Shown here: positions 1 through 11,132 of the stretch, in pieces
How the letters are laid out: each line of letters starts with the position of its first letter
Position numbering within the stretch: position 1 is the first letter of the stretch
NCBI GenBank assembly: GCA_019058295.1
Contig: JAHPZI010000017.1
Span: forward strand, 34,917-98,916
Length of the DNA: 64,000 nucleotides
Direction: 5' to 3'
From: Promethearchaeota archaeon
Lineage (GTDB): Archaea; Asgardarchaeota; Lokiarchaeia; Sigyniarchaeales; SOKP01
Position numbers and translations under genes: made by a program
The notes under the pieces: model-generated
Told to the model about the DNA's origin: nothing
Database searches by the model: none
The model's input: only the letters and a program-made list of their open reading frames with translations

Positions 1-406
1 TTATGAATTAGTGATAGATAATATTGAAATCATGACGTACGATAGTATAGAAAGAGATTTTGAATGTGAAACATGTTTAAATTTTGGAGATTGTTTACAT
101 CAAGCTCAGGCTTTTATCCTAATGATTAATATAGCAGAAAAAAATTCTATTGCCGAATTAAAAGAAATGTTCCAAAAAATTGTTAATAGATGCGAAGAAA
201 TAGGGAATGTTAAAACACCCATTTTGATTATTGGAAACAAAATTAACAATAAAGAAGTTATAAATTCAGAAGATATTAATACAACTTTCAATCTGAAAGA
301 ATTACAGGATTGTGGAATGAAACTTAAATATTTTCCAATAAATATTGCAAAAGAAAAAAAAAAAATTATAAAAGCTTTACGCTGGTTAATCCACCATATG
401 ATTTAA
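1..406 (+). CDS. Small GTPase-like protein (Arf/Rab/Roc-like), 5' truncated by window edge
   Basis: Frame is open from base 2; contains PILIIGNK (G4 NKxD-like motif); P-loop not in window. Confidence 0.55.
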   Translation, partial: YELVIDNIEIMTYDSIERDFECETCLNFGDCLHQAQAFILMINIAEKNSIAELKEMFQKIVNRCEEIGNVKTPILIIGNKINNKEVINSEDINTTFNLKELQDCGMKLKYFPINIAKEKKKIIKALRWLIHHMI

Positions 407-506: not shown

Positions 507-818
507 ATGTCAGATATTCAATTACCTATTGTGATTACTAAAGAAGGATGCCCACATTGCCATGAATTTAAGGATTGGATGAAGGAAAACGAGCTTCCTT
601 ATGTCGAGAAAGACATTGACGATGAGGAATTTGTACAACAATTATTACAGGACTCTAATTTTGTAGGAATGTTTTGTGATAAAGAAGGATGTGTTGTGAA
701 TACACCAGTTATAATGTGGAAAGGAAAATATTGGTTTAAAGAATTATGGGGTATTTCTGGCCTACGGAAGAAAGAAGCTCAAAAGATATTTAAAGATTTA
801 TTCAAAGTGAAGGCATAA
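507..818 (+). CDS. Glutaredoxin-like protein
   Basis: CPHC motif near N-terminus and NTPVI cis-Pro motif; 103 aa. Confidence 0.85.
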   Translation: MSDIQLPIVITKEGCPHCHEFKDWMKENELPYVEKDIDDEEFVQQLLQDSNFVGMFCDKEGCVVNTPVIMWKGKYWFKELWGISGLRKKEAQKIFKDLFKVKA

Positions 819-836
819 TTATCTTCTTTTTTTTAT

Positions 837-1436
837 TTATTCTTTAAATTCCGCTAACCTTTTAATAACTTTTCTAATGCTTTTCAAACCCTCCTCGTCC
901 TGTTCTACGCCTTTTTTACCTAGGTCCTTGGTCCATAATGAGGCACCTAAATTAGCTCCAAATGCTCCTCCTGAAACGCAAATCACATGATTTTGTTGAT
1001 AAAAATCTAAAATTGATCTTATTGCGATTTCTTGTCCACCACTTCGATCCCCACCAACTGCTAAAGCTACTCCAATTTTGTTTTTGAATACATTTGGATT
1101 TTTGGCAATTAACGCACGACAGCGATCCATGATCGTTTTTAGTTGCCCCGATAAATTCCCTTGAAAAACAGGAGTTCCTAATAAGAGAAATTTTGCTATT
1201 TCTAACTTAGGGTAGAGTTCCGCTAAATTATCAACATGCATACATCCTTTTTTCTCACGAATGCAATAATCGCAATGGACGCAGAATTTTATGGTCTTTC
1301 CTCTAACTGTCCAAAATTCAGTTTCAAATCCAAATTTCTTTGCGGCATAATCCAATGCATATTCAACAGCAAACTCAGTCCCTTGATTTCGCGGACTTCC
1401 ACATATACCTAATAGTAGGTTTTTATTTTGAGCCAT
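837..1436 (-). CDS. Iron-sulfur flavoprotein (Isf) / NADPH-dependent FMN reductase family
   Basis: GSPR FMN-binding start, CVHCDYC-x6-C Fe-S motif, GTPVF and GGQE motifs. Confidence 0.9.
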   Translation of the reverse strand: MAQNKNLLLGICGSPRNQGTEFAVEYALDYAAKKFGFETEFWTVRGKTIKFCVHCDYCIREKKGCMHVDNLAELYPKLEIAKFLLLGTPVFQGNLSGQLKTIMDRCRALIAKNPNVFKNKIGVALAVGGDRSGGQEIAIRSILDFYQQNHVICVSGGAFGANLGASLWTKDLGKKGVEQDEEGLKSIRKVIKRLAEFKE

Positions 1437-1509
1437 AATATTACTTAATAGTATTATTTTATAAAATTATCCCTAAAAATTTTAAACGATTAATCTCTAT
1501 TAAGTAGCA

Positions 1510-2163
1510 ATGGTTTCAGAAAAATCAAGCTTAGCCCGTGTTAAAGTAAAGTTCCCAGATCAGATTTGGATAAGTGAAATCTTTAAAAAATTCAATGATA
1601 TTCAAATGGAAATCATTAATTTCCTTCCATATGATCTTGAAAAATCTATTGGAAACGCAATAATCGAGATTATGCATTATCAAATTAAATCTATTGTAGA
1701 AGTAATCAAGAACCATCCCTCAGTGTTTGAGTTTAGTATATTAGAACAGGAAGAGAACAAAATTAGGTTTAATGTTAAAACAAAAGATCCTTATTTGTTG
1801 TATGGAGTAATAAAATATGGAGTTTTAGTAAATTTCCCGGTTAAGGTCAAGGAGGGTTATGCTTATTGGAGGCTAATTTCAACGAGGAAAAGAATCGATG
1901 ATTTATTAACTCTTTTTGAAAATAAAGGAATTGATTTTGAATTATTAAGAATTGGTAATTCTCCTTATGAAATTGATGATCATAGTTCTAAATTAAGTTT
2001 TGAGGAAGATAAAATTTTAGAAAAAGCAATTAGTTCAGGATTTTTTGAAGTTCCTCGAAAAATCTCCTTAGAAGAATTAGCTAATGAATTGGGAAAATCT
2101 AAATCTGCTTTATCAGTTATGCTGAGAAAAATTATTAAAAAAAAGGTTGTCTTAAAAATTTAA
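1510..2163 (+). CDS. HTH-10 (bacterio-opsin activator C-terminal type) transcriptional regulator
   Basis: C-terminal GFFEVPRKISLEELANELGKSKSALSVMLRK signature. Confidence 0.85.
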   Translation: MVSEKSSLARVKVKFPDQIWISEIFKKFNDIQMEIINFLPYDLEKSIGNAIIEIMHYQIKSIVEVIKNHPSVFEFSILEQEENKIRFNVKTKDPYLLYGVIKYGVLVNFPVKVKEGYAYWRLISTRKRIDDLLTLFENKGIDFELLRIGNSPYEIDDHSSKLSFEEDKILEKAISSGFFEVPRKISLEELANELGKSKSALSVMLRKIIKKKVVLKI

Positions 2164-2941
2164 ATTTTCCTATTTTGAATAATTGAACCATCTCTGCCAA
2201 TGATGGTCTCCTCAACTGAAATTTGGCGATCAATCGTTTGTAGAATTGGATCTAAGAATATTTTAATTTTTTGACAGCAAGGAACTTCCATTAACACCAG
2301 TTTGATGCTTTCTATTGGATTTAATTTTAAAATTTGCTCCAATTTTTCCAACTCGACTTCTCCAAGACCTAACATCGGACAAACTGTTACCAATGGCTTT
2401 CCTCTAAGGATTTTTCTGTGAAAATCACCATAAGCAAATGGCGAACAGTCTGAGGCGATTACTAATTCTTTATTATTGAAATATGGAGCGGTAGGATTAA
2501 CTAATGTTAATTTTGTTGGCCATTGTCGTAATGCGGATGGAATTTCCCCTGTAAGTTCAGAATCTTCCCATATTTCCTCAAATACTATTGGTTGAGATGA
2601 TGGACAATTACATTGATGGGTGTGTGTAGATTTCTCCTTTTCCTTCAGTTTTTCTAAGTGGTTTTCTACAGCCTCCTCATCGAATGCTACCGCTTCTCTT
2701 TCTATGATCCTTAAAGCACCTTCAGGACATTCTCCAATACACGCACCAAGCCCATCACAAAATACATCATTCACAACTTTAGCTTTTCCATCAATAATTT
2801 CGAGGGCGCCTTTTATGCTACATAAGAGATAACTTATGTTTCTGCACAGGCGACCACACAATTACCACAGCCAGTACACAAATCATCATCAATTTTAATT
2901 ATCTTTCTATTCACTAATTTTCCTTTTTCAGTTAAAGTCAT
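2160..2941 (-). CDS. 2x[4Fe-4S] dicluster protein interrupted by a 29-nt BHB intron; exons 2941-2842 and 2812-2160, 250 aa after splicing
   Basis: ATG at 2941 downstream of GAGGT RBS. Exon 1 reads MTLTEKGKLVNRKIIKIDDDLCTGCGNCVVACA; the junction G|AA makes E; exon 2 continues GALEIIDGKAKVVNDVFCDGLGACIGECPEGA...QWP...ASDC...CP...MEVPCC. The ORF-track start at 2861 is an out-of-frame artefact. Confidence 0.88.
2813..2841 (-). other. Putative archaeal bulge-helix-bulge intron in an mRNA (29 nt)
   Basis: Outer helix CGCCU/AGGCG, 4-bp central helix GUGC/GCAU, 3-nt bulges AGA and AAA, inner stem ACAUAAG/CUUAUGU after one A.A mismatch. Cutting after the 2nd nt of each bulge restores the reading frame. 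Confidence 0.85.
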
Positions 2942-3004
2942 TTTTTTTTACCTCTTTTAGTTCTTATTTAAAGGATAATTAAAACTTGATATAATTTTAA
3001 TCTC

Positions 3005-3014
3005 GAACATGTTC
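3005..3014. promoter_or_regulatory. Palindrome GAACATGTTC, candidate transcription-factor site
   Basis: Perfect 10-bp palindrome just upstream of the TATA-like element of the intron-containing gene; TCGAACATGTTC recurs at 7408-7419. Confidence 0.5.
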
Positions 3015-3117
3015 TTGTTTTCTATTTCCCTTAAAATTTGGATTATTAAGACTTCGGCATGATATCTAATGTGTTAAGGTTAAAAAATGAAAAAAAAAAA
3101 TTAATTGTTTTTTATTC

Positions 3118-3136
3118 TTACTACTCTTCCTACCTA
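3118..3136. repeat. 19-bp direct repeat copy 1 (TTACTACTCTTCCTACCTA)
   Basis: Identical to 4228-4246. Confidence 0.9.
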
Positions 3137-4146
3137 GATTTGGGTTTCGCAATAATTCCTTTCTTAATTAAAACGATTATTACAGCAACGCCAGCGCCAA
3201 TACTAACAAGAACAACAACAATAATAATTAATCCTATTTCAAAACCAGCCTCATCATCATCATCATCGTCATCATCGGGGGTTGGCAGTGGTGTGGATGT
3301 AGCTTCTTTTAATTTGAATAAAATTGCCTTTTCTTTAACACCATTAGTAAAATCAAGAAGATCAATAGAGACATTGTTATAATTTATCAAATCACCGTTA
3401 TCTAACCCACTTACAGGATATGTTCTCATAAAAGAGAAGCCATTGACTGATGTAGTATTTTTGTATTGAAATTTAATGTTTCCATTTTCATAGAAAATGG
3501 CTTGGAATGTTTGGTTCTTATAAGAACCAAATTCTTGAATCCAATAATATTCTATTATTAACTTTCTATTAGGAGCAGTATCCTTAACTTCATAATACAC
3601 ACCACCATCCGAATCACCTGGATCTAGATCACATCCAAATAGAAAAATACTACCATTAAACATTCCCATATTAGGAGCATTGCAATCCTGTGGAATATAT
3701 GCAAGTTGAACTCCTTCAAATGAATCCCATTCATAATCTGTCGGATCTCCATGATAGGAAAATGTCATCCATCCATTTGTACACACATTAAGATATTCAT
3801 ATACTCGTCCGAAATATTTAAAGTTCCATGCTCCGATTTCTGTGAGATTTAATCTTTGAGAACCATCATCATCATTGGGAAGTCCACTAGTATCAACAAA
3901 GTTTGTCAATCTAGTTCCCGTTTCATTAATTTCAATCCAATTATAGCTCGCATTAATAGTCATAGTATAATTAAAACCAGGATTCCAGCCAGATGTCTTT
4001 AATGTAGCAGTTGAATTTTCATCAATTATTTTATTTTTTGTATTTGCATTATTTTCAATTATAGTTGGAAATACTGGTAAAATCAAAATTAAAAACAATA
4101 TAGCAAATAACCGTTCTTTTTTTTTTGTCAAATTTTTATCTACCAA
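3130..4146 (-). CDS. Membrane-anchored cell-surface protein with NIDO-like extracellular domain
   Basis: N-terminal signal/TM segment; FKYFG..Y..LNVCTNGWMTF and DLDP motifs; Pro/Thr plus poly-Asp linker; C-terminal TM helix and basic tail. Confidence 0.7.
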   Translation of the reverse strand: MVDKNLTKKKERLFAILFLILILPVFPTIIENNANTKNKIIDENSTATLKTSGWNPGFNYTMTINASYNWIEINETGTRLTNFVDTSGLPNDDDGSQRLNLTEIGAWNFKYFGRVYEYLNVCTNGWMTFSYHGDPTDYEWDSFEGVQLAYIPQDCNAPNMGMFNGSIFLFGCDLDPGDSDGGVYYEVKDTAPNRKLIIEYYWIQEFGSYKNQTFQAIFYENGNIKFQYKNTTSVNGFSFMRTYPVSGLDNGDLINYNNVSIDLLDFTNGVKEKAILFKLKEATSTPLPTPDDDDDDDDEAGFEIGLIIIVVVLVSIGAGVAVIIVLIKKGIIAKPKSR

Positions 4147-4227
4147 ATTTTATTGATAATTAAAGTTTTGACAAAAAAGTATTTAAAGGTTTTCAAAAAA
4201 AAAAAAAAATTGATAATTTTAATATTT

Positions 4228-4246
4228 TTACTACTCTTCCTACCTA
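4228..4246. repeat. 19-bp direct repeat copy 2
   Basis: Identical to 3118-3136; followed on the minus strand by an oligo-T run. Confidence 0.9.
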
Positions 4247-4249
4247 TAT

Positions 4250-4624
4250 TTAGGAGGACTTCCATAATCCATGGAGATTGCAATACTCCCGTGCCCAAAG
4301 TCCTTCCGTATCATCAACTACGAAGGTTGCTTTGGGTTCATCCCCTGGCTTTAAATTTACCTTTTCATAGAAATTATTACCTATTAAGTTAATCCATTGA
4401 ATCGAGTGTTCTTTAGTCATGGGATGAGGGGACCCCATAGAAATACCAACATCAACAGTTACGTTATTTCCATCAATTGTAATTTTTGGAACATGTTTCT
4501 CACCTTTCCAATCTGCTGTTTGTGGTTCTAATAACTCCATTTCTTGTTTACAACACTCTATATAGTCAGCTGTAGCGAAAAGGACCGTCCCGCATTTATT
4601 ACATTTATAAACTTCTTTTACCAT
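4250..4624 (-). CDS. dfx: Desulfoferrodoxin / 2Fe-superoxide reductase
   Basis: CxxC...CC desulforedoxin domain; EKHVP, HPM..EH and CNLHG motifs. Confidence 0.93.
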   Translation of the reverse strand: MVKEVYKCNKCGTVLFATADYIECCKQEMELLEPQTADWKGEKHVPKITIDGNNVTVDVGISMGSPHPMTKEHSIQWINLIGNNFYEKVNLKPGDEPKATFVVDDTEGLWAREYCNLHGLWKSS

Positions 4625-4736
4625 ATTGACACCTCTTTATATTATTAATCCTCACTTTTCTTTTTAACGTGTTAAGATTAAGAAATTAAATAAAAAAAAA
4701 AGATTTTATTTTTAAAAACATATTTGGTGCTGGTAA

Positions 4737-4907
4737 TCACAATTTAATTAAAGCAGCCCCAATAATTCCTACAATGACGCCAACAATTATTAGTACCCAG
4801 CCAATCATTATCATATCAGCAGAACCAGCAATAATCAAGACAGCACCAATGACGCCTAGTATAGCTGCAACCATATCAATTATGATTCCAACTTGTTTAG
4901 TTTCCAT
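4737..4907 (-). CDS. Small two-TM membrane protein (56 aa), not in ORF track
   Basis: GAGGT RBS then ATG; METKQVGIIIDMVAAILGVIGAVLIIAGSADMIMIGWVLIIVGVIVGIIGAALIKL. Confidence 0.75.
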   Translation of the reverse strand: METKQVGIIIDMVAAILGVIGAVLIIAGSADMIMIGWVLIIVGVIVGIIGAALIKL

Positions 4908-5043
4908 TTTTAATACCTCACATTTTATATTAATAAAAGAAAATTTGTTGTATGAATAATTTCAACTTTTAAATATTTAAAACTTACCAGTATTAAAAGG
5001 TAAATTAAGGAAAAAAAAATCAAATTGAAGAAAAAAATTATAT

Positions 5044-5361
5044 TTATTCAGATCTAATCATTATTAGCATCATTTTATACTTTTCAATTGCTTTTAGAGC
5101 GTGTGGCTCATTTGCGGGCATGATAAGCATTTGATCTTTTTTCAGATGGTAAGGTTTGCCACTAATTGTAATTTCTGCTTCACCATCAAAGATATAAACA
5201 AGAGCATCAAAAGGTGTCGTATGTTCGCTTAATCCTTGATCTTTATCGAAAGCAAAAAGGGTAACAGTACCTACCTTCTTATCGATTAAAGTTTTACTCA
5301 CAACTGAGTTATCTTGATAATCAATCAAACTATTCAGATTTTTAATAGAAGCTACTTCCAT
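5044..5361 (-). CDS. Cupin-domain protein
   Basis: GLSEHTTPFDA and PANEPHAL cupin motifs. Confidence 0.9.
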   Translation of the reverse strand: MEVASIKNLNSLIDYQDNSVVSKTLIDKKVGTVTLFAFDKDQGLSEHTTPFDALVYIFDGEAEITISGKPYHLKKDQMLIMPANEPHALKAIEKYKMMLIMIRSE

Positions 5362-5395
5362 TTCTTTTCCCTCAATACATAAGTAAAATTATAAA

Positions 5396-7300
5396 TCATA
5401 ATCCCAACTTCTTACGATTTGCTTCAATGTGTTCTAACATTGCATCAACAGCTTGAATCGTATCGGTTTCAACATGTAGGATTCCGCCAGTAACATCTTT
5501 ACAGTCAACAGTTAATAATTTGACTAAATCTGGTCCTCCTGTAACCGTAGGAACAGGATTCACATAGGTGTAAAGTCCAAACGCAAGTGCAAATATCGCA
5601 TCGATAGTTGCTTTTTGTTCCATATACTCCGGCGCGACAGCAACAACAGGTAAATCAGGGATTGGAACACCTCCAAGGGCATCTGAAACAGCGGCAACAA
5701 GATCTGCTACCCGTCCAGTATCCGTACATGTTCCATAACTTAGGACTGGAGGTGTACCCAATTTTTCACAAAGAGCCTTGAGACCTGGGCCTGCTAAATC
5801 TTTTGCTTCCGGAGAACATAATCCTGCAACCTGTACTCCTCCATTTCCACATCCCATAGAAAGCACCAAGACATCTCTTTTAATTAATTCTTTAGCTACA
5901 GCAACAGTATGTACATCTTGACCCTTATCTCTAAGACTTGTACAAGAAACAAGTCCCGCAACACCTCTTATAGTACCATCTTTTATTGCATCAAGAAGAG
6001 GTGTTAAGGATCCTCCTAAAGCTTCAACAATACTTTCTGTAGAAAAGCCAACCACAGCCTCATTCATATCTAATCCTATTACAGGATCTATGCTTTCATG
6101 GCGTTCCTTAAAATTATCAATTGCCATTTGAAGCAATGTTGCTGCTTGTTCTTCTGCTTTTTCAGGGATATAATCAAGTCTTTCATCAATTCCTTCAAAG
6201 GCAACTACTTCTGATACGGGAATTAATTTGAACTTGTATTTTTCAGCATAAAGTGGATCGATTGGCATTGAACAATTCATGTCGCATACAAATGCATCAA
6301 TACACCCACTTGCGAGAACTGCTTCTTGCATTATCCAATTTCCCGTAAAACCATAGAAAACATCGTCCATCTCCCATCTTTGAATCATTTCCTGTCCAGT
6401 TTCAATATTAGCGATAATTCGAAGGCCTTTAGCACCAACTGTTTTCGCTTTCTCTTGCCATTCAGGCTTTCTTGCCAATTGAACCATTGCAAATCCAAGG
6501 AACGGTTCATGTCCATTGGGTAAAATATTAACATAATCAGGATCTAATACACCAAGATTTACCCGCATTTTATGAGGCCTTGGAACATTAAAAAGAATAT
6601 CTTGAATAAATTCATTGACAATTTGACTTTGATATGCCATAGCAATTCCTAATCGCATTGCTTTTAAGGCTAAGCTTGCATAATATCCATCTACATTCGT
6701 CAAACATGAACTTGTAGAGAACATCATTTCACCATAAAGACCGCCAGGATAAATTCCAATTTTTTTCCATACATCTTGTCTTTCTTTAGGTGCTAAAGCT
6801 TCAACAACCTTGCTGGGCTCATCAAACGGTCTATTGAAATCTTCCTTAACGGCATTATATAATCTTAAAGCAATTTCATTATCCGAACCAGAAGTATCTA
6901 AACCTAATCGATTTGCAAAACTTTTTAATTTTTGCGGTTCACTAATTTTAAACGGAGTTTTTCCTTCAATTGTCGCTTTTAACGTTTTTAGTGTAGTTTC
7001 TGTGTGATAATGATATGTGGAAGTACCCATTACATTTCTTAGAAGCATCATCCGCATAGCCATACCATCCGCTGTGATTCCACAGACCCCTCGTTTATCA
7101 ATAGTTACATCTGCTCGACAAGGTCCATTAGAGCATAAATCACATCTAGCACCCTTTAAGCAGAATGGACATCTTTTATCGGGAACACCACCAAATCCTT
7201 GAGCTTCAAACCGATCCCAGATATTAATCATGCCATCTTTTTTTATACGTTCATAGACTTTTTGTACCGATTTATGATATGAAATTCTTTCTCCTTCCAT
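5396..7300 (-). CDS. cooS: CooS-family (Ni-CODH/HCP superfamily) protein with variant C-cluster ligands
   Basis: B-cluster CDLCSNGPC..CG; NGHEP, DMNC, VSC, GCG, GTCTD and EQKA motifs; IETGQE in place of canonical CCTGNE. Confidence 0.88.
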   Translation of the reverse strand: MEGERISYHKSVQKVYERIKKDGMINIWDRFEAQGFGGVPDKRCPFCLKGARCDLCSNGPCRADVTIDKRGVCGITADGMAMRMMLLRNVMGTSTYHYHTETTLKTLKATIEGKTPFKISEPQKLKSFANRLGLDTSGSDNEIALRLYNAVKEDFNRPFDEPSKVVEALAPKERQDVWKKIGIYPGGLYGEMMFSTSSCLTNVDGYYASLALKAMRLGIAMAYQSQIVNEFIQDILFNVPRPHKMRVNLGVLDPDYVNILPNGHEPFLGFAMVQLARKPEWQEKAKTVGAKGLRIIANIETGQEMIQRWEMDDVFYGFTGNWIMQEAVLASGCIDAFVCDMNCSMPIDPLYAEKYKFKLIPVSEVVAFEGIDERLDYIPEKAEEQAATLLQMAIDNFKERHESIDPVIGLDMNEAVVGFSTESIVEALGGSLTPLLDAIKDGTIRGVAGLVSCTSLRDKGQDVHTVAVAKELIKRDVLVLSMGCGNGGVQVAGLCSPEAKDLAGPGLKALCEKLGTPPVLSYGTCTDTGRVADLVAAVSDALGGVPIPDLPVVAVAPEYMEQKATIDAIFALAFGLYTYVNPVPTVTGGPDLVKLLTVDCKDVTGGILHVETDTIQAVDAMLEHIEANRKKLGL

Positions 7301-7409
7301 TTTTTTTCAAACCTTTATTTGTTTTAATTCTTTAGGAAAACTAAGTTTATAAATATAGTTCTTATAAACCAAATAACAAATAATTTATATCTAATTTAAA
7401 ATCTCTTTC

Positions 7410-7419
7410 GAACATGTTC
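7410..7419. promoter_or_regulatory. Palindrome GAACATGTTC in the divergent cooS / oxidoreductase promoter
   Basis: Second copy of the motif at 3005-3014. Confidence 0.5.
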
Positions 7420-7471
7420 AAATTTAGAACTTATAATAAAAACTTTAAAATATTAAAAAAACCATTAAAAA

Positions 7472-8827
7472 ATGATGAAAGTAGTAATTATAGGAAATGG
7501 AGTAGCAGGAATCTTTGCGGCTCAAAATATTCGCATGCTTGATAAAGAGGCGGAGCTCGAGATATATTCTCTTGAAAACTATCCCTATTATACTCGAATT
7601 AAACTTCCAGAATTGATTTCTGAGCAAGTAACTATTGAGGATCTAATTGTATTTAAACAAGAATGGTATAACACGAAGAATATAAAGGTCACTTTAGGTA
7701 AGAAAATAAATAGAATTCATCTTGAACATAAGCATGTATTCTTTGAGGGAGAGAGTGAGCCGATTAAGTATGATAAATTAATTATCGCTACAGGTAGCAT
7801 GCCAAATATTCCTCCGATCAAGAATGCAAATGAGATGGTTGGTAAAGGAGTCTTTACATTAAGAAATATTGATAATGCTTTAGAAATAAAAGAATACATA
7901 GATAAGAATAAGGTTTTAAAAGCAATCATTATAGGAGGCGGTTTATTAGGTCTTGAACTTGCTAAACAGATAAAAAATTGTGGATTAGACACTACTGTTG
8001 TGGAGTTTTTTCCGAGGCTATTACCAAGACAACTGGATGTTGATTGCGGAGGAATGCTAGAAAAAGTTATTGAGGATATGGGAATAAAGGTTGTTCTTAG
8101 CGCCACTACAGAAGAGATTCTTGGAGAGGAGAAAGTAAAAGGAATTAAATTGAAAGATGGGCGTGAATTTGAGGCAGAAATAGTGTTAATTCAAGCTGGA
8201 ATTAGAGCAACCATAGACTTAGCAAGACATACAGGCTTGGAAACTAATCGAGGAATTATAGTAAATAAATATTTAGAGACAAGTGTGGAGGATGTTTATG
8301 CTATTGGCGACTGCATTGAATTTAATAATCAAACTTGGGGTATTATTCCCGCATGTATAGAACAATCTAAAATCATTGCCGCCTCAGTGATTGGTAAGAA
8401 AACTGTAGAATATCAAGCTACTGTACCAAAAAATACACTTAAGATAGTTGGAATCGATTTAACTTCTGTTGGGGTGTTCGATCCCGAAGATATTGATCAA
8501 ATAGGAGCAGGATGGCGAATTCTGAAAGCTGTGGATAAGAAAGGGAATTGTTATAAAAAAATTGTCCTTAAAGATAATAAACTTAAAGGAGCAATCTTAT
8601 TTGGCGAAAAAAAGGCCATCCCATATGTTAACAAGAATATGGAATCCGAGATTCAAGAAGATGAGCTACGCAAGGCTGTTGGCATATATAAATGGATATG
8701 TGAAGAATGCGGATATGTCTATGATGAGGCAAAACAAGAATTATTATATAAAGACTTGCCCGAGGATTGGAAATGTAAATGTGGGAATTATAAAGATAAT
8801 TTTCAAAGGCAACCCCCTGAAGAATAA
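7472..8827 (+). CDS. NAD(P)H:rubredoxin oxidoreductase-like flavoprotein with C-terminal rubredoxin-like domain
   Basis: GNGVAG and GGGLLGLE dinucleotide folds, YAIGD; C-terminal WICEECGYVYD...WKCKCG. Confidence 0.88.
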   Translation: MMKVVIIGNGVAGIFAAQNIRMLDKEAELEIYSLENYPYYTRIKLPELISEQVTIEDLIVFKQEWYNTKNIKVTLGKKINRIHLEHKHVFFEGESEPIKYDKLIIATGSMPNIPPIKNANEMVGKGVFTLRNIDNALEIKEYIDKNKVLKAIIIGGGLLGLELAKQIKNCGLDTTVVEFFPRLLPRQLDVDCGGMLEKVIEDMGIKVVLSATTEEILGEEKVKGIKLKDGREFEAEIVLIQAGIRATIDLARHTGLETNRGIIVNKYLETSVEDVYAIGDCIEFNNQTWGIIPACIEQSKIIAASVIGKKTVEYQATVPKNTLKIVGIDLTSVGVFDPEDIDQIGAGWRILKAVDKKGNCYKKIVLKDNKLKGAILFGEKKAIPYVNKNMESEIQEDELRKAVGIYKWICEECGYVYDEAKQELLYKDLPEDWKCKCGNYKDNFQRQPPEE

Positions 8828-8844
8828 AATGGAGGTAAGGAATA

Positions 8845-8988
8845 ATTCCAAAATATAGATGTAAACGTTGCAATTATTTATACATTGATGATGAGCAAAA
8901 ACAATGTTTTGAAGATTTAGATGAGAAAGAATGGTGCTGTCCTCGATGTAAATGCAGCAAGAACATGTTTGTAAAACTGAATAATTAA
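8845..8988 (+). CDS. Rubredoxin-like protein (47 aa) with apparent ATT start
   Basis: (M)PKYRCKRCNYLYIDDEQKQCFEDLDEKEWCCPRCKCSKNMFVKLNN; GGAGGT RBS at 8831; in-frame TAA at 8836 leaves only ATA/ATT as possible starts. Confidence 0.8.
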   Translation: MPKYRCKRCNYLYIDDEQKQCFEDLDEKEWCCPRCKCSKNMFVKLNN

Positions 8989-9080
8989 TAACTGATAAGA
9001 AGATTTTATAAATTATAGACCTAAATTTTTTAATATTCTTGTTATTAAAATCCATATAATTAAAATTTAAGGTGCAAAAT

Positions 9081-9218
9081 ATGGCAAAATGGGAATGTAC
9101 CGCTTGTGGATATATATACGATGAGGAAGCAGAAGGAACTAAATTTGAAGATTTACCTGACGATTGGACTTGCCCGGTCTGCGGTGTAGGAAAGGATATG
9201 TTTGAAAAAATATCATAA
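9081..9218 (+). CDS. Rubredoxin (45 aa), not in ORF track
   Basis: [45 protein letters not shown]; AGGTG RBS. Confidence 0.95.
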
Positions 9219-9268
9219 TTAATAATATATACTCTCTTCTTTCTTTTTTTTATTTTTATAATAGTCCA

Positions 9269-9706
9269 TCAATACTTAAGATCAACATTTACTTCAATTC
9301 CCTCTCTAACGGCAGCGGTGACTGTACAATAATTTTCAAACATCTTCTTACACTGGTCTGCTCTTTTTCGCACAGCAGGATCATCAATTTTAGAAACGAT
9401 CTCTACATTTACTTTTTTAACTCTTAAAAAACCTTTATCGTTCCTTCCTATTATCACTTCGGCATCTGCTTTTAAATCATCAATTGAAAAATTTCTTTTT
9501 TTTAGACAGAAAATAAAACTTGCACTTAAACATCCTAAAAGAGCCATACCGAGAAGTTTAGAAGGGTTTGGACCCCACATTTCTACTTCTTCTTGATTTG
9601 TTTCATCGATATAGCAGTCTTTTACTGCCATTTGACCCATTTCACATTTGAAAATCATATCTTTTTCCAATTTTAGACCTACTTTAGTTTTTACTTCTTC
9701 AGCCAT
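9269..9706 (-). CDS. OsmC/Ohr family protein
   Basis: GPNPSKLL..AL.GC and second Cys in ENYCTV. Confidence 0.85.
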   Translation of the reverse strand: MAEEVKTKVGLKLEKDMIFKCEMGQMAVKDCYIDETNQEEVEMWGPNPSKLLGMALLGCLSASFIFCLKKRNFSIDDLKADAEVIIGRNDKGFLRVKKVNVEIVSKIDDPAVRKRADQCKKMFENYCTVTAAVREGIEVNVDLKY

Positions 9707-9826
9707 TATTATCTACCTCTATTGATAAATGGTTAAATAAATTATAATTTCTCTTTATCGAAAAATAATTTTTTATTATTATTTTACTTAAGAATTTATA
9801 ATTCATATAAATTAAATTTAAATCCA

Positions 9827-9854
9827 TTTTTAATATACAATTTTTAATATACAA
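9827..9854. repeat. Tandem 14-bp repeat TTTTTAATATACAA x2 in the osmC/fprA divergent promoter
   Basis: Seen directly in sequence. Confidence 0.6.
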
Positions 9855-9890
9855 TAATTAAAAAGAATCCTATATAAATAGTGATGAATA

Positions 9891-11132
9891 ATGCAAGCAG
9901 TAAAAATAAATGATGGCATTTATTGGATTGGAGCGAATATACATACTGAAGACTTATTTGAAGGAATTTGGCCAATTCCAAAAGGAGTAGCACTTAATTC
10001 CTATATTGTGAAAGGAGATAAAATTGCGATCATCGAATTAGTTCGTGAATGGGGGGGAGCCTCCCACATTCTTCTTGAGAATATGAAATCAATTCCAATA
10101 GATGTGAAAGATATTGATTATATCATTTTAAATCATCTCGAACCTGATCACACAGGATTTACATATACGCTTCATCAACTAGCTCCCAAAGCTGAAATTA
10201 TCGCTACTCCAAAGGGAGTCGAATTAGTTGATGGATTTTATGAAATTAAAAATAATGTTAAAGCAGTAAAAACAGGAGATACGCTCGACCTTGGACAGGG
10301 GAAGGAATTCATGTTTGCTGAAATTCCAAATGTACATTGGCCTGAAACAATGGTTACTTATGAAAAAAGTACTAAAACGCTTTTCTCAAGTGATGCTTTT
10401 GGTGCCTATGGAGTCCATAAGGGAAGTATATTTGATGATGAAACACCAGATGCTCATAAGCCATATTGGGAAGAAGAAATGCTGAGATATTATGCTAATA
10501 TTGTTGCTATGTTTTCTACGAGTGTTTTGAAGGCTATTGATTCTTTGAAAGATATTGAAATAAAAACCATAGCTCCTTCCCATGGTCTGGTGTGGAGAGG
10601 AAAACCCGAGGTTGTAGTCAAGAAATATATACGTTATGCGAACTATAATCAAGATTATGCGGAGCCTGAAATATGTATTGTGTGGGGAAGTATGTACGGT
10701 AATACTGAAGCAATGTTGAGCAGTATAATAAGAGGCATTAAATCCGAAAATGTACCTGTTAAAATTTATAGAGTTCCGAATGATGATCCTTCTTTTATCC
10801 TGGCGGATGTATATAAATCTGCAGGATTAATTATAGGAACACCAACTTATGAGTATGAGATGTTTCCTCCGATGAAGTATTTATTGGATCTATTAAAGAA
10901 AAAACGAATGCGGTTTAAGAAAGTTTTGTTTTTTGGATCCTATGGATGGAGCGGAGGTGCTCAAAAAGATTTTGATGAGTTATCAACAAACATGAAATGG
11001 GATATTCTTGAGCCCGTTGTTTTTCGGGGATATCCTACAAGTGAGATACAAAAAAAAGGTGAAGATCTCGCAGCTGAACTTGCTCGACAAGTTAAAGAAA
11101 TACCTTCAAAAATTAAGGATGAGGATTATTAA
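9891..11132 (+). CDS. fprA: Flavodiiron protein (FprA, O2/NO reductase)
   Basis: NHLEPDH, HWPE, SDAFG and PSHG diiron motifs; flavodoxin domain SMYGNT and GSYGWSGG. Confidence 0.95.
   Translation: MQAVKINDGIYWIGANIHTEDLFEGIWPIPKGVALNSYIVKGDKIAIIELVREWGGASHILLENMKSIPIDVKDIDYIILNHLEPDHTGFTYTLHQLAPKAEIIATPKGVELVDGFYEIKNNVKAVKTGDTLDLGQGKEFMFAEIPNVHWPETMVTYEKSTKTLFSSDAFGAYGVHKGSIFDDETPDAHKPYWEEEMLRYYANIVAMFSTSVLKAIDSLKDIEIKTIAPSHGLVWRGKPEVVVKKYIRYANYNQDYAEPEICIVWGSMYGNTEAMLSSIIRGIKSENVPVKIYRVPNDDPSFILADVYKSAGLIIGTPTYEYEMFPPMKYLLDLLKKKRMRFKKVLFFGSYGWSGGAQKDFDELSTNMKWDILEPVVFRGYPTSEIQKKGEDLAAELARQVKEIPSKIKDEDY

What the first reader, a model, noticed from the sequence alone, without database searches (positions are those of the whole stretch)
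2804..2855. Bulge-helix-bulge intron inside a protein-coding Fe-S gene of a probable Asgard archaeon
Seen: on the minus strand the gene reads ...GGU CGCCU GUGC AG^A A ACAUAAG UUAUCU CUUAUGU A GCAU AA^A AGGCG CCC.... This folds into an outer helix (CGCCU/AGGCG), a 4-bp central helix (GUGC/GCAU, one G.U), two 3-nt bulges on opposite strands and a 7-bp inner stem with one A.A mismatch at its base. The 29-nt insert (2813-2841) contains two in-frame UAA stops and shifts the frame. Established: the archaeal splicing endonuclease EndA cuts after the 2nd nucleotide of each bulge. Applying that rule joins GCA-G|AA-GGC and gives CTGCGNCVVACAEGALEIIDGKA, an uninterrupted ferredoxin-type motif followed by the second cluster motif. 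Well-established archaeal mRNA introns are very few (crenarchaeal cbf5 is the classic case). Inference: this organism splices an mRNA with its tRNA machinery. Unspliced RNA would give only a 35-aa peptide, so splicing could act as a switch for an Fe-S protein in a redox-stress island, loosely analogous to non-spliceosomal HAC1/XBP1 splicing. Standard gene callers miss it and invent a wrong N-terminus.
Basis: partly seen in the sequence, partly recalled or inferred. Interest (0 to 1): 0.97.

Follow-up and report, generated by a model that had tools for sequence, protein, structure and literature searches.

The report
tRNA-type mini-intron in Asgard Fe-S gene
A 29-base insert that breaks an iron-sulfur protein gene of an Asgard (Loki-type) archaeon has the shape, cut sites and conservation of an intron removed by the archaeal tRNA-splicing enzyme; the papers I could search document this inside a coding sequence for only one archaeal gene (cbf5), and RNA proof is still missing here.

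Summary
Window 2813-2841 (minus strand) is a 29-nt insert with two in-frame TAA codons. The free-energy fold of the region is a strict bulge-helix-bulge motif. Cutting after the second base of each bulge restores CxxCxxCxxxC-AEGALEIIDGKA.

In 180 intact homologues from bacteria and archaea the two cluster motifs lie exactly 60 nt apart. They lie 89-90 nt apart only in some Promethearchaeota of the window's family.

I collected 20 distinct intron-bearing sequences from independent assemblies. 94% of the proposed pair positions (one pair in one sequence) can pair, four pairs show compensatory changes, and the central helix pairs in all 20. Both exons stay intact under purifying selection.

Another sample holds the intron unchanged, and a close strain lacks exactly these 29 nt. 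The genome encodes two EndA paralogues. The ligase RtcB is missing from this 79%-complete assembly but present in 8 of 9 congeners.

My own scan also found matching inserts in Sec61beta, uL11 and ArgG. No RNA data exist, so splicing is inferred. The "redox switch" idea has no support.

This scan has noted sibling cases on other DNA; the papers I could search report only cbf5 plus one Haloferax 5'-UTR intron.

The parts
2842..2941 (-). Exon 1: ATG at 2941-2939, 33 codons plus the first base (G2842) of the Glu codon. It encodes the N-terminus and the first ferredoxin motif CTGCGNCVVAC-A.
   Evidence: Pfam Fer4_6/Fer4 match over residues 14-34. Aligns to residues 1-34 of intact homologues. dN/dS 0.1-0.3 among intron-bearing genes.
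2813..2841 (-). 29-nt BHB mini-intron with two in-frame TAA codons. It holds the inner 7-bp hairpin, the 3' strand of the central helix (GCAU), one base of the 5' bulge and two bases of the 3' bulge.
   Evidence: Fold. Same site and length in 20 distinct sequences (18 of 29 nt, 2 of 30 nt). Pair counts. Present unchanged in a second sample's contig and precisely absent from a related strain.
2160..2812 (-). Exon 2: AA-GGC-GCC... completes the Glu codon. It then encodes GALEIIDGKA, the second cluster motif CDGLGACIGECP and the Cys-rich AF_0155-type C-terminal domain. The stop codon is at 2162-2160.
   Evidence: 4443 homologues, the closest 94% identical and uninterrupted. The spliced product is 250 aa with no other defect.
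2807..2852 (-). Complete hBHBh' splicing motif. Outer exon-exon helix 2852-2848/2811-2807; central 4-bp helix 2847-2844/2818-2815; 3-nt bulges 2843-2841 and 2814-2812; inner stem 2839-2833/2826-2820. Predicted cuts lie between 2842|2841 and 2813|2812.
   Evidence: In 20 sequences 94.4% of pair positions can pair, against 26-59% when partners are slid. The central helix pairs in 100%. Four pairs have changes on both sides.
1510..2163 (+). HTH_10-family regulator gene, convergent with the Fe-S gene. It is a conserved neighbour and is context, not part of the intron.
   Evidence: Pfam. The same neighbour lies downstream of the homologue in loci L001, L004-L007, L009 and L010.

Best explanation
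The gene at window 2160-2941 (minus strand) encodes a 250-aa protein. The protein has an N-terminal 2x[4Fe-4S] ferredoxin domain fused to a Cys-rich AF_0155-type domain. A 29-nt archaeal bulge-helix-bulge intron splits the gene right after the first cluster motif. The proposed mechanism, with the basis of each step, is as follows.

(1) The pre-mRNA folds into a strict hBHBh' motif. This is shown in silico and by conservation.

(2) The splicing endonuclease EndA cuts after the second base of each 3-nt bulge. EndA is encoded by two paralogues, presumably the alpha and beta subunits of the (alpha-beta)2 enzyme described for Asgard archaea. The genes are shown; the cleavage is inferred.

(3) An RtcB-type ligase joins ...GCA-G to AA-GGC..., giving CAEGALEIIDGKA, and probably circularises the intron. 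This step is inferred. RtcB is not in this incomplete assembly but is present in congeners.

(4) Only the spliced mRNA gives the full protein. Unspliced RNA gives a 35-aa peptide.

The intron is dispensable and evolutionarily labile. It is homologous in two paralogous clades of the gene and has been gained or lost at least five times. It is one of several such mini-introns in protein genes of this genome.
For: Geometry: the MFE fold equals the canonical motif.

Product: intron removal restores the motif and frame seen in intact homologues.

Spacing: the last Cys of cluster 1 to the first Cys of cluster 2 is 60 nt in all 180 intact loci examined. It is 89-90 nt only in intron-bearing Promethearchaeota loci.

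Conservation: 20 distinct intron variants come from JGI, Logan, ENA and NCBI assemblies. 94.4% of pair positions can pair, against 26-59% in slid controls. Four pairs are compensatory (3 of 500 shuffles reach this). The covariation score is 0.217 against 0.137 (0 of 500). The central helix pairs in 100% while the loop is free to vary.

Not a pseudogene: all 8 intron-bearing genes tested splice in silico to 249-264-aa proteins with an ATG and no other lesion. dN/dS is about 0.1-0.3 for exon 1 and 0.08-0.23 for exon 2.

Real DNA: a contig of another sample spans the intron with 0 differences. A related strain's contig lacks exactly 29 nt here. A contig of a fourth run, from another study (X4), shows an A-U to U-A swap at 2839/2820.

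Machinery: two EndA-family ORFs of 201 aa each, with both the N-terminal and the catalytic domain. Asgard EndA is reported as broad-specificity (alpha-beta)2 (PMC5829648). RtcB is present in 8 of 9 other genomes of the genus. About 9 credible intron-containing tRNA genes were called (10 calls, one spurious).

Sibling cases found by my own scan: Sec61beta, uL11 and ArgG carry 30-32-nt BHB inserts. Pfam matches run across a stop codon or begin exactly at the predicted exon boundary.
Against: There is no RNA-level evidence. No RNA run holds this stretch, so cleavage, ligation and the circular intron are all inferred. RtcB was not found in this genome, which is 79% complete. Most of the compensatory signal comes from a few deep events (clade A against clade B), so the number of independent events is small. 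The outer helix has a mismatch in half of the variants. One 30-nt variant (L214/L229/L232) has a degenerate inner stem. My relaxed genome-wide scans found as many ORF-restoring hits with a mirror-image (wrong-handed) motif as with the true one. Motif plus ORF restoration alone is therefore not proof.
Confidence: 0.88

Rival explanations
1. The gene is a pseudogene. A 29-nt insertion inactivated it and the hairpin is incidental.
For: The insert shifts the frame and carries two in-frame stops. Close relatives have an uninterrupted gene. The gene family is not universal in the phylum: 186 of 400 genomes have it.
Against: 20 distinct variants in two paralogous clades keep an insert of 29-30 nt at the identical site with the same fold. 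Both exons are otherwise intact with dN/dS well below 1, and the start codon is conserved. A decaying pseudogene would accumulate further lesions and length changes.
Confidence: 0.03
2. The insert is skipped during translation (programmed ribosomal bypass or hopping, as in phage T4 gene 60), not removed from the RNA.
For: A stop codon lies two codons after the break, inside a stable hairpin. This superficially resembles the gene 60 take-off site (the comparison rests on my own knowledge).
Against: There is no matched take-off and landing codon pair that gives the conserved product. The only downstream GCA (2817-2815) is followed directly by TAA. What is conserved is the 4-bp helix and the two 3-nt bulges, which bypassing does not need. 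The same motif occurs in other genes of this genome with different flanking codons.
Confidence: 0.03
3. The gene is a true split gene. A 35-aa N-terminal peptide and a separately initiated C-terminal protein are made and assemble without any RNA joining.
For: Exon 1 has its own ATG and Shine-Dalgarno-like GAGGT. Gene callers report a downstream ORF from a TTG at 2861.
Against: The downstream 'start' lies inside exon 1 in another frame and is not conserved. The called N-termini differ in each relative and are translated intron. The split would cut one ferredoxin fold immediately after its first Cys motif. This reading does not explain the conserved BHB geometry.
Confidence: 0.03
4. The insert is an assembly or sequencing artefact.
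For: The window comes from a metagenome-assembled genome of 30 contigs, 79% complete.
Against: The insert is present in independent assemblies from many samples and pipelines. An independent contig at depth 16.6 has 0 differences.
Confidence: 0.01

Closest known systems
BHB intron in the cbf5 pre-mRNA of Crenarchaeota (Watanabe 2002; Yokobori 2009, PMC2738675)
   Same: A bulge-helix-bulge intron inside a protein-coding sequence, removed by the tRNA-splicing endonuclease. Its distribution is patchy, with gain and loss among relatives. Gene callers mis-annotate the split gene.
   Different: The host gene differs (an Fe-S redox protein, not a pseudouridine synthase). The phylum differs (Promethearchaeota/Asgard, not Thermoproteota). 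This locus has no RNA proof. Here it is one of several interrupted protein genes in one genome: Sec61beta, uL11 and ArgG were confirmed by me.
BHB intron in the 5' UTR of HVO_1309 mRNA, Haloferax volcanii (PMC7714728)
   Same: An mRNA substrate of the archaeal splicing endonuclease outside tRNA and rRNA.
   Different: That intron lies in the untranslated leader and does not interrupt the reading frame. It was shown experimentally; this one is inferred.
Archaeal tRNA and rRNA BHB introns, including the heavily interrupted tRNA genes of Asgard archaea (PMC11291895; bioRxiv 10.64898/2026.10.13.758758)
   Same: The same strict hBHBh' geometry and cut rule, a similar small size, and the same presumed enzymes (EndA and RtcB).
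   Different: The exon helices are made of coding sequence, so codon choice and RNA pairing constrain each other. The product is a protein, not a structural RNA.
HAC1/XBP1 unconventional mRNA splicing (IRE1 plus tRNA ligase/RtcB) in eukaryotes
   Same: Non-spliceosomal, endonuclease-plus-ligase removal of a small intron that changes the reading frame of an mRNA.
   Different: The endonuclease differs (IRE1, stress-activated) and so do the stem-loop cut sites. Regulation is the defining point there. Nothing here indicates regulated splicing.

Membership tests
Archaeal BHB (EndA-type) intron | Two 3-nt bulges on opposite strands separated by a 4-bp helix, in the handedness of pre-tRNA (5' exon strand of the central helix, 3' bulge next to the exon helix) | tested here: met
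   The MFE fold reproduces it. The central helix pairs in 20 of 20 variants and the bulges keep 3 nt.
Archaeal BHB (EndA-type) intron | Flanking helices h (exon-exon) and h' (intron hairpin) | tested here: met
   5-bp outer helix (90% of pair positions can pair; one position is mismatched in half the variants) and 7-bp inner stem (94% can pair; 4 compensatory pairs).
Archaeal BHB (EndA-type) intron | Cutting after the second bulge base on both strands and joining the exons gives the functional product | tested here: met
   In silico only. The cut restores the frame, the motif CAEGAL and the invariant 60-nt cluster spacing of 180 intact homologues.
Archaeal BHB (EndA-type) intron | Splicing endonuclease encoded by the organism | tested here: met
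   Two EndA paralogues of 201 aa, each with tRNA_int_endo_N and tRNA_int_endo domains. This is consistent with the (alpha-beta)2 type reported for Asgard archaea (PMC5829648).
Archaeal BHB (EndA-type) intron | RNA ligase (RtcB) to join the exons | tested here: inconclusive
   Not found in this 79%-complete assembly. Present in 8 of 9 other genomes of the genus, including all 4 high-quality ones.
Archaeal BHB (EndA-type) intron | Spliced RNA and excised (circular) intron detectable | not testable with these tools
   No RNA run holds the stretch.
Stress-regulated unconventional mRNA splicing switch (HAC1/XBP1-like) | Splicing is conditional on a signal, and the unspliced mRNA is held untranslated or gives a different product | not testable with these tools
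   No expression data. Indirect evidence argues against a required switch: an intronless near-identical homologue, a patchy distribution, and similar introns in housekeeping genes.

The most novel reading that the evidence does not exclude
Splicing of this intron is conditional rather than constitutive. Full-length protein needs EndA cleavage and RtcB ligation, and RtcB-type ligases are oxidation-sensitive (my own knowledge, not tested here). The intron would then tie production of this Fe-S protein in a redox-stress gene cluster to the cell's redox state. That would be a prokaryotic, HAC1/XBP1-like post-transcriptional switch. The finding that the RtcB gene of two congeners itself carries such an intron would add a feedback loop.
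Probability: 0.06. Interest if true: 0.9.

Novelty: new member of a known kind. Interest (0 to 1): 0.8.

Why it matters
Endonuclease-spliced introns inside archaeal coding sequences are documented in the papers I could search for a single gene family, cbf5 in Crenarchaeota, plus one 5'-UTR case in Haloferax. [quoted passage not shown] I confirmed three more interrupted protein genes in the same genome (Sec61beta, uL11, ArgG), and two congeners carry an interrupted RtcB gene. These organisms therefore appear to depend on protein-only mRNA splicing for ordinary genes.

The locus is useful for three reasons. Intron-bearing and intronless alleles coexist among very close relatives, which is a natural experiment on intron gain and loss. 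The exon helices are coding sequence, so RNA structure and codon choice co-evolve. The junction is easy to test.

There is also a practical consequence. Standard gene callers split or truncate such genes: public databases hold at least six mis-called N-termini for this family. Asgard proteomes and metabolic reconstructions therefore carry systematic errors.

Tried and rejected
RNA evidence: the look-up of sequencing runs listed no RNA holder, so expression and splicing could not be examined.

Rfam and ARAGORN gave nothing in the window.

RtcB was not found in G000. I read this as assembly incompleteness because congeners have it.

Genome-wide census: four scans for BHB geometry plus ORF restoration were run, each with a mirror-image motif as control.
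- Strict geometry ranked by energy puts the window's intron first and recovers Sec61beta and uL11.
- Total counts for the true and the mirror motif are nevertheless the same: 1220 against 1247, 29529 against 29738, and 538 against 546.
- A codon-usage filter did not separate real cases from gene-boundary artefacts.
- I therefore cannot give the number of mRNA introns in this genome.

Tree: G172 (L098) dropped out of the tree because my extraction started on a TAG at the junction codon. Its intron is still counted elsewhere.

Other points considered and rejected:
- The 59-nt pattern hits in the metagenome scan are intact genes of other organisms, not short introns.
- Ribosomal bypass, a true split gene, a pseudogene and an assembly artefact are treated under rival explanations.
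- The regulatory-switch reading was kept only as a low-probability novel case.

Full report
OBSERVATION. The ORF from the ATG at 2941 runs through CTGCGNCVVACA-E-T and stops at a TAA after 35 codons (2834-2941). A second ORF in another frame (2160-2861) carries the rest of the protein behind a spurious N-terminus.

The 29 nt at 2841-2813 hold two TAA codons in the exon-1 frame and shift the frame (3n+2). An unconstrained fold of 2800-2860 gives exactly the proposed structure:
- outer helix 2852-2848/2811-2807;
- 4-bp central helix 2847-2844/2818-2815;
- 3-nt bulges 2843-2841 and 2814-2812;
- an A.A mismatch;
- a 7-bp inner stem and a 6-nt loop.

The energy is -19.9 kcal/mol, z = -3.3, and 1 of 200 shuffles folds as well. 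The handedness is that of pre-tRNA: the 5' exon supplies one strand of the central helix, and the 3' bulge abuts the exon helix. This comparison rests on established knowledge of the motif. Cutting after the second base of each bulge joins GCA-G to AA-GGC and reads CAEGALEIIDGKA.

THE GENE. Exon 1 matches 4Fe-4S ferredoxin models up to its last residue, and exon 2 continues with the second cluster motif. The exon-2 protein has 4443 homologues. The closest are 250-254-aa proteins of Promethearchaeota with two Fer4 motifs fused to the AF_0155 domain (PF27217), and they read CAEGALEIIDGKA without interruption.

The neighbourhood is a redox-stress cluster: glutaredoxin, FMN reductase, an HTH_10 regulator, desulfoferrodoxin, cupin, a hybrid-cluster/prismane protein, a rubredoxin-reductase-like flavoprotein and OsmC. 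The HTH_10 gene is a conserved neighbour in the relatives.

COMPARATIVE TEST. Several close homologues in the databases are shorter and begin with peptides that are translated intron (P0004, P0006, P0029, P0086, P0089, P0090). I fetched their DNA and 80 loci from species-representative genomes. I also took 30 loci and 80 short regions from a 400-genome sample of the phylum.

I then measured the distance from the last Cys codon of motif 1 to the first Cys codon of motif 2. It is 60 nt in all 180 intact loci, bacterial and archaeal. It is 89 nt only in loci of the window's family.

An unbiased pattern scan of metagenome contigs constrained only the flanking exons and allowed any 15-45-nt filling. 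It added further variants, two of them with a 30-nt insert. One of these is on a contig whose accession prefix I recognise as the Loki's Castle metagenome; that identification is my own recollection.

Altogether there are 20 distinct intron-bearing sequences. On them:
- 94.4% of the proposed pair positions (one pair in one sequence) form standard pairs, against 26-59% when partners are slid by 1-3 columns;
- four inner-stem pairs change on both sides (C-G/U-A, G-C/A-U, A-U/U-A, A-U/G-C); 3 of 500 shuffles reach this;
- the covariation score exceeds all 500 shuffles;
- the central helix pairs in every sequence, while the loop varies freely (the first 12 sequences are).

Most of the compensatory signal comes from a few deep events, so I treat it as supportive, not as many independent proofs.

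NOT A PSEUDOGENE, NOT AN ARTEFACT. Eight intron-bearing genes, spliced in silico by the bulge rule, all give 249-264-aa proteins with an ATG start and no other lesion. dN/dS is about 0.1-0.3 for exon 1 and 0.08-0.23 for exon 2, across synonymous divergences up to saturation.

Laying public contigs on the window gave three results:
- a contig of another sample spans the intron with no difference, at depth 16.6;
- a contig of a third sample (from the same study as the first two) is a related strain with 31 substitutions that lacks exactly 29 nt here;
- a contig of a fourth run, from another study, carries a variant intron with an A-U to U-A swap at 2839/2820.

The intron is therefore real DNA, and intronless alleles coexist in the same habitat.

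DISTRIBUTION. Of the 108 loci from the phylum sample that could be scored, 8 carry the intron. They are G000 and G172 in the window's genus and six genomes of a second genus, all in one family. All 12 scored loci of other families are intact.

A protein tree of 60 rows needs at least 5-6 gains or losses. The window's nearest relative, P0001 (94% identical), is intronless. The gene falls into two clades about 47% identical in protein, and both hold the intron at the same site. The two intron sequences are alignable without gaps (my count: 19 of 29 identical between the window and L010).

The simplest reading is an old intron with repeated precise losses. Gene conversion or re-insertion cannot be excluded.

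MACHINERY. The genome has two EndA-family genes of 201 aa, each with the N-terminal and the catalytic domain. This fits the (alpha-beta)2 enzyme with the L1 loop reported for Asgard archaea (PMC5829648). RtcB is absent from this 79%-complete assembly but present in 8 of 9 other genomes of the genus. ARAGORN tRNA genes, 10 of them with introns; one of the 10 is a spurious call, leaving about 9 credible.

OTHER INTERRUPTED PROTEIN GENES. My strict scan ranked this intron first and also found two more inserts:
- a 32-nt insert in Sec61beta (C30:56079-56110);
- a 30-nt insert in uL11 (C30:126695-126724).

A relaxed scan found a 30-nt insert splitting SGGL|DTS of ArgG (C2:55238-55267). Pfam searches of the genome confirm all three. 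The uL11 and ArgG matches run across the insert with one stop inside, and the Sec61beta match starts exactly at the predicted exon 2.

In two congeners the RtcB gene itself is split within GYDINCG by a 29-nt insert with the same geometry.

Relaxed scans cannot give a total. Mirror-image controls yield equal numbers of ORF-restoring hits.

LITERATURE AND EARLIER NOTES. In the searchable library, BHB introns in mRNA are reported for cbf5 of Crenarchaeota (PMC2738675) and a 5' UTR in Haloferax. A 2020 paper states that cbf5 was the only earlier mRNA example (PMC7714728). Asgard papers describe abundant tRNA introns but no mRNA introns.

This scan has noted many sibling cases in other Asgard genomes and in this genome, and the same stretch was read once more. 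Those are unchecked notes, except for the three cases I re-found and tested myself.

VERDICT. The reading as an EndA/RtcB-spliced mRNA intron is strongly supported by comparison but lacks RNA proof; my confidence is 0.88. The regulatory-switch idea is unsupported and rather disfavoured. The mechanism is of the known cbf5 kind. The host gene and the lineage are new, and so are the finding of several interrupted protein genes in one genome and the presence/absence polymorphism among close relatives.

Noticed in passing
L206:203-242 (G173:C13, same genus); same split in G171:C3: The RtcB ligase gene is itself interrupted inside its conserved GYDINCG motif by a 29-nt insert. The insert has a TTGG/CCAA central helix, bulges ATA and AAA and an 8-bp hairpin. 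Applying the bulge rule restores GGA-TAC-GAC. The enzyme needed to join exons would then depend on splicing of its own mRNA.
   Followed up: partly
G000:C30:56079-56110 (-), G000:C30:126695-126724 (-), G000:C2:55238-55267 (-): Three further protein genes of the same genome carry 30-32-nt BHB-shaped inserts with in-frame stops: Sec61beta, ribosomal protein uL11 and argininosuccinate synthase ArgG. The Pfam matches run across the inserts or start exactly at the predicted exon 2.
   Followed up: yes
L214:7071-7133, L229:1597-1664, L232:231-298: A 30-nt variant of the same intron is found on three contigs. Its central helix reads GUGC/GUAU and its inner stem is degenerate (two U.U mismatches). It may be a weakened or decaying intron, or it may show how relaxed the enzyme's requirements are.
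   Followed up: partly
window 507-11132: A dense redox and oxidative-stress gene cluster surrounds the Fe-S gene: glutaredoxin, FMN reductase, HTH_10 regulator, desulfoferrodoxin, cupin, hybrid-cluster (prismane) protein, rubredoxin-reductase-like flavoprotein and OsmC.
   Followed up: partly
proteins P0004, P0006, P0029, P0086, P0089, P0090; loci L004:918-1025, L009:1424-1528: Public protein sets hold mis-called versions of this gene. The C-terminal proteins begin with translated intron, and separate 34-35-aa 'Fer4' ORFs are called for exon 1.
   Followed up: yes
window 3130-4146 (-): A 338-aa ORF with no Pfam match. It has an N-terminal hydrophobic segment, a run of eight Asp residues and a C-terminal hydrophobic segment. 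Its function is unknown.
   Followed up: no
window 2-406 (+): An Arf/Ras-family small GTPase fragment lies at the window edge. This is a eukaryote-like signature protein typical of Asgard archaea.
   Followed up: no
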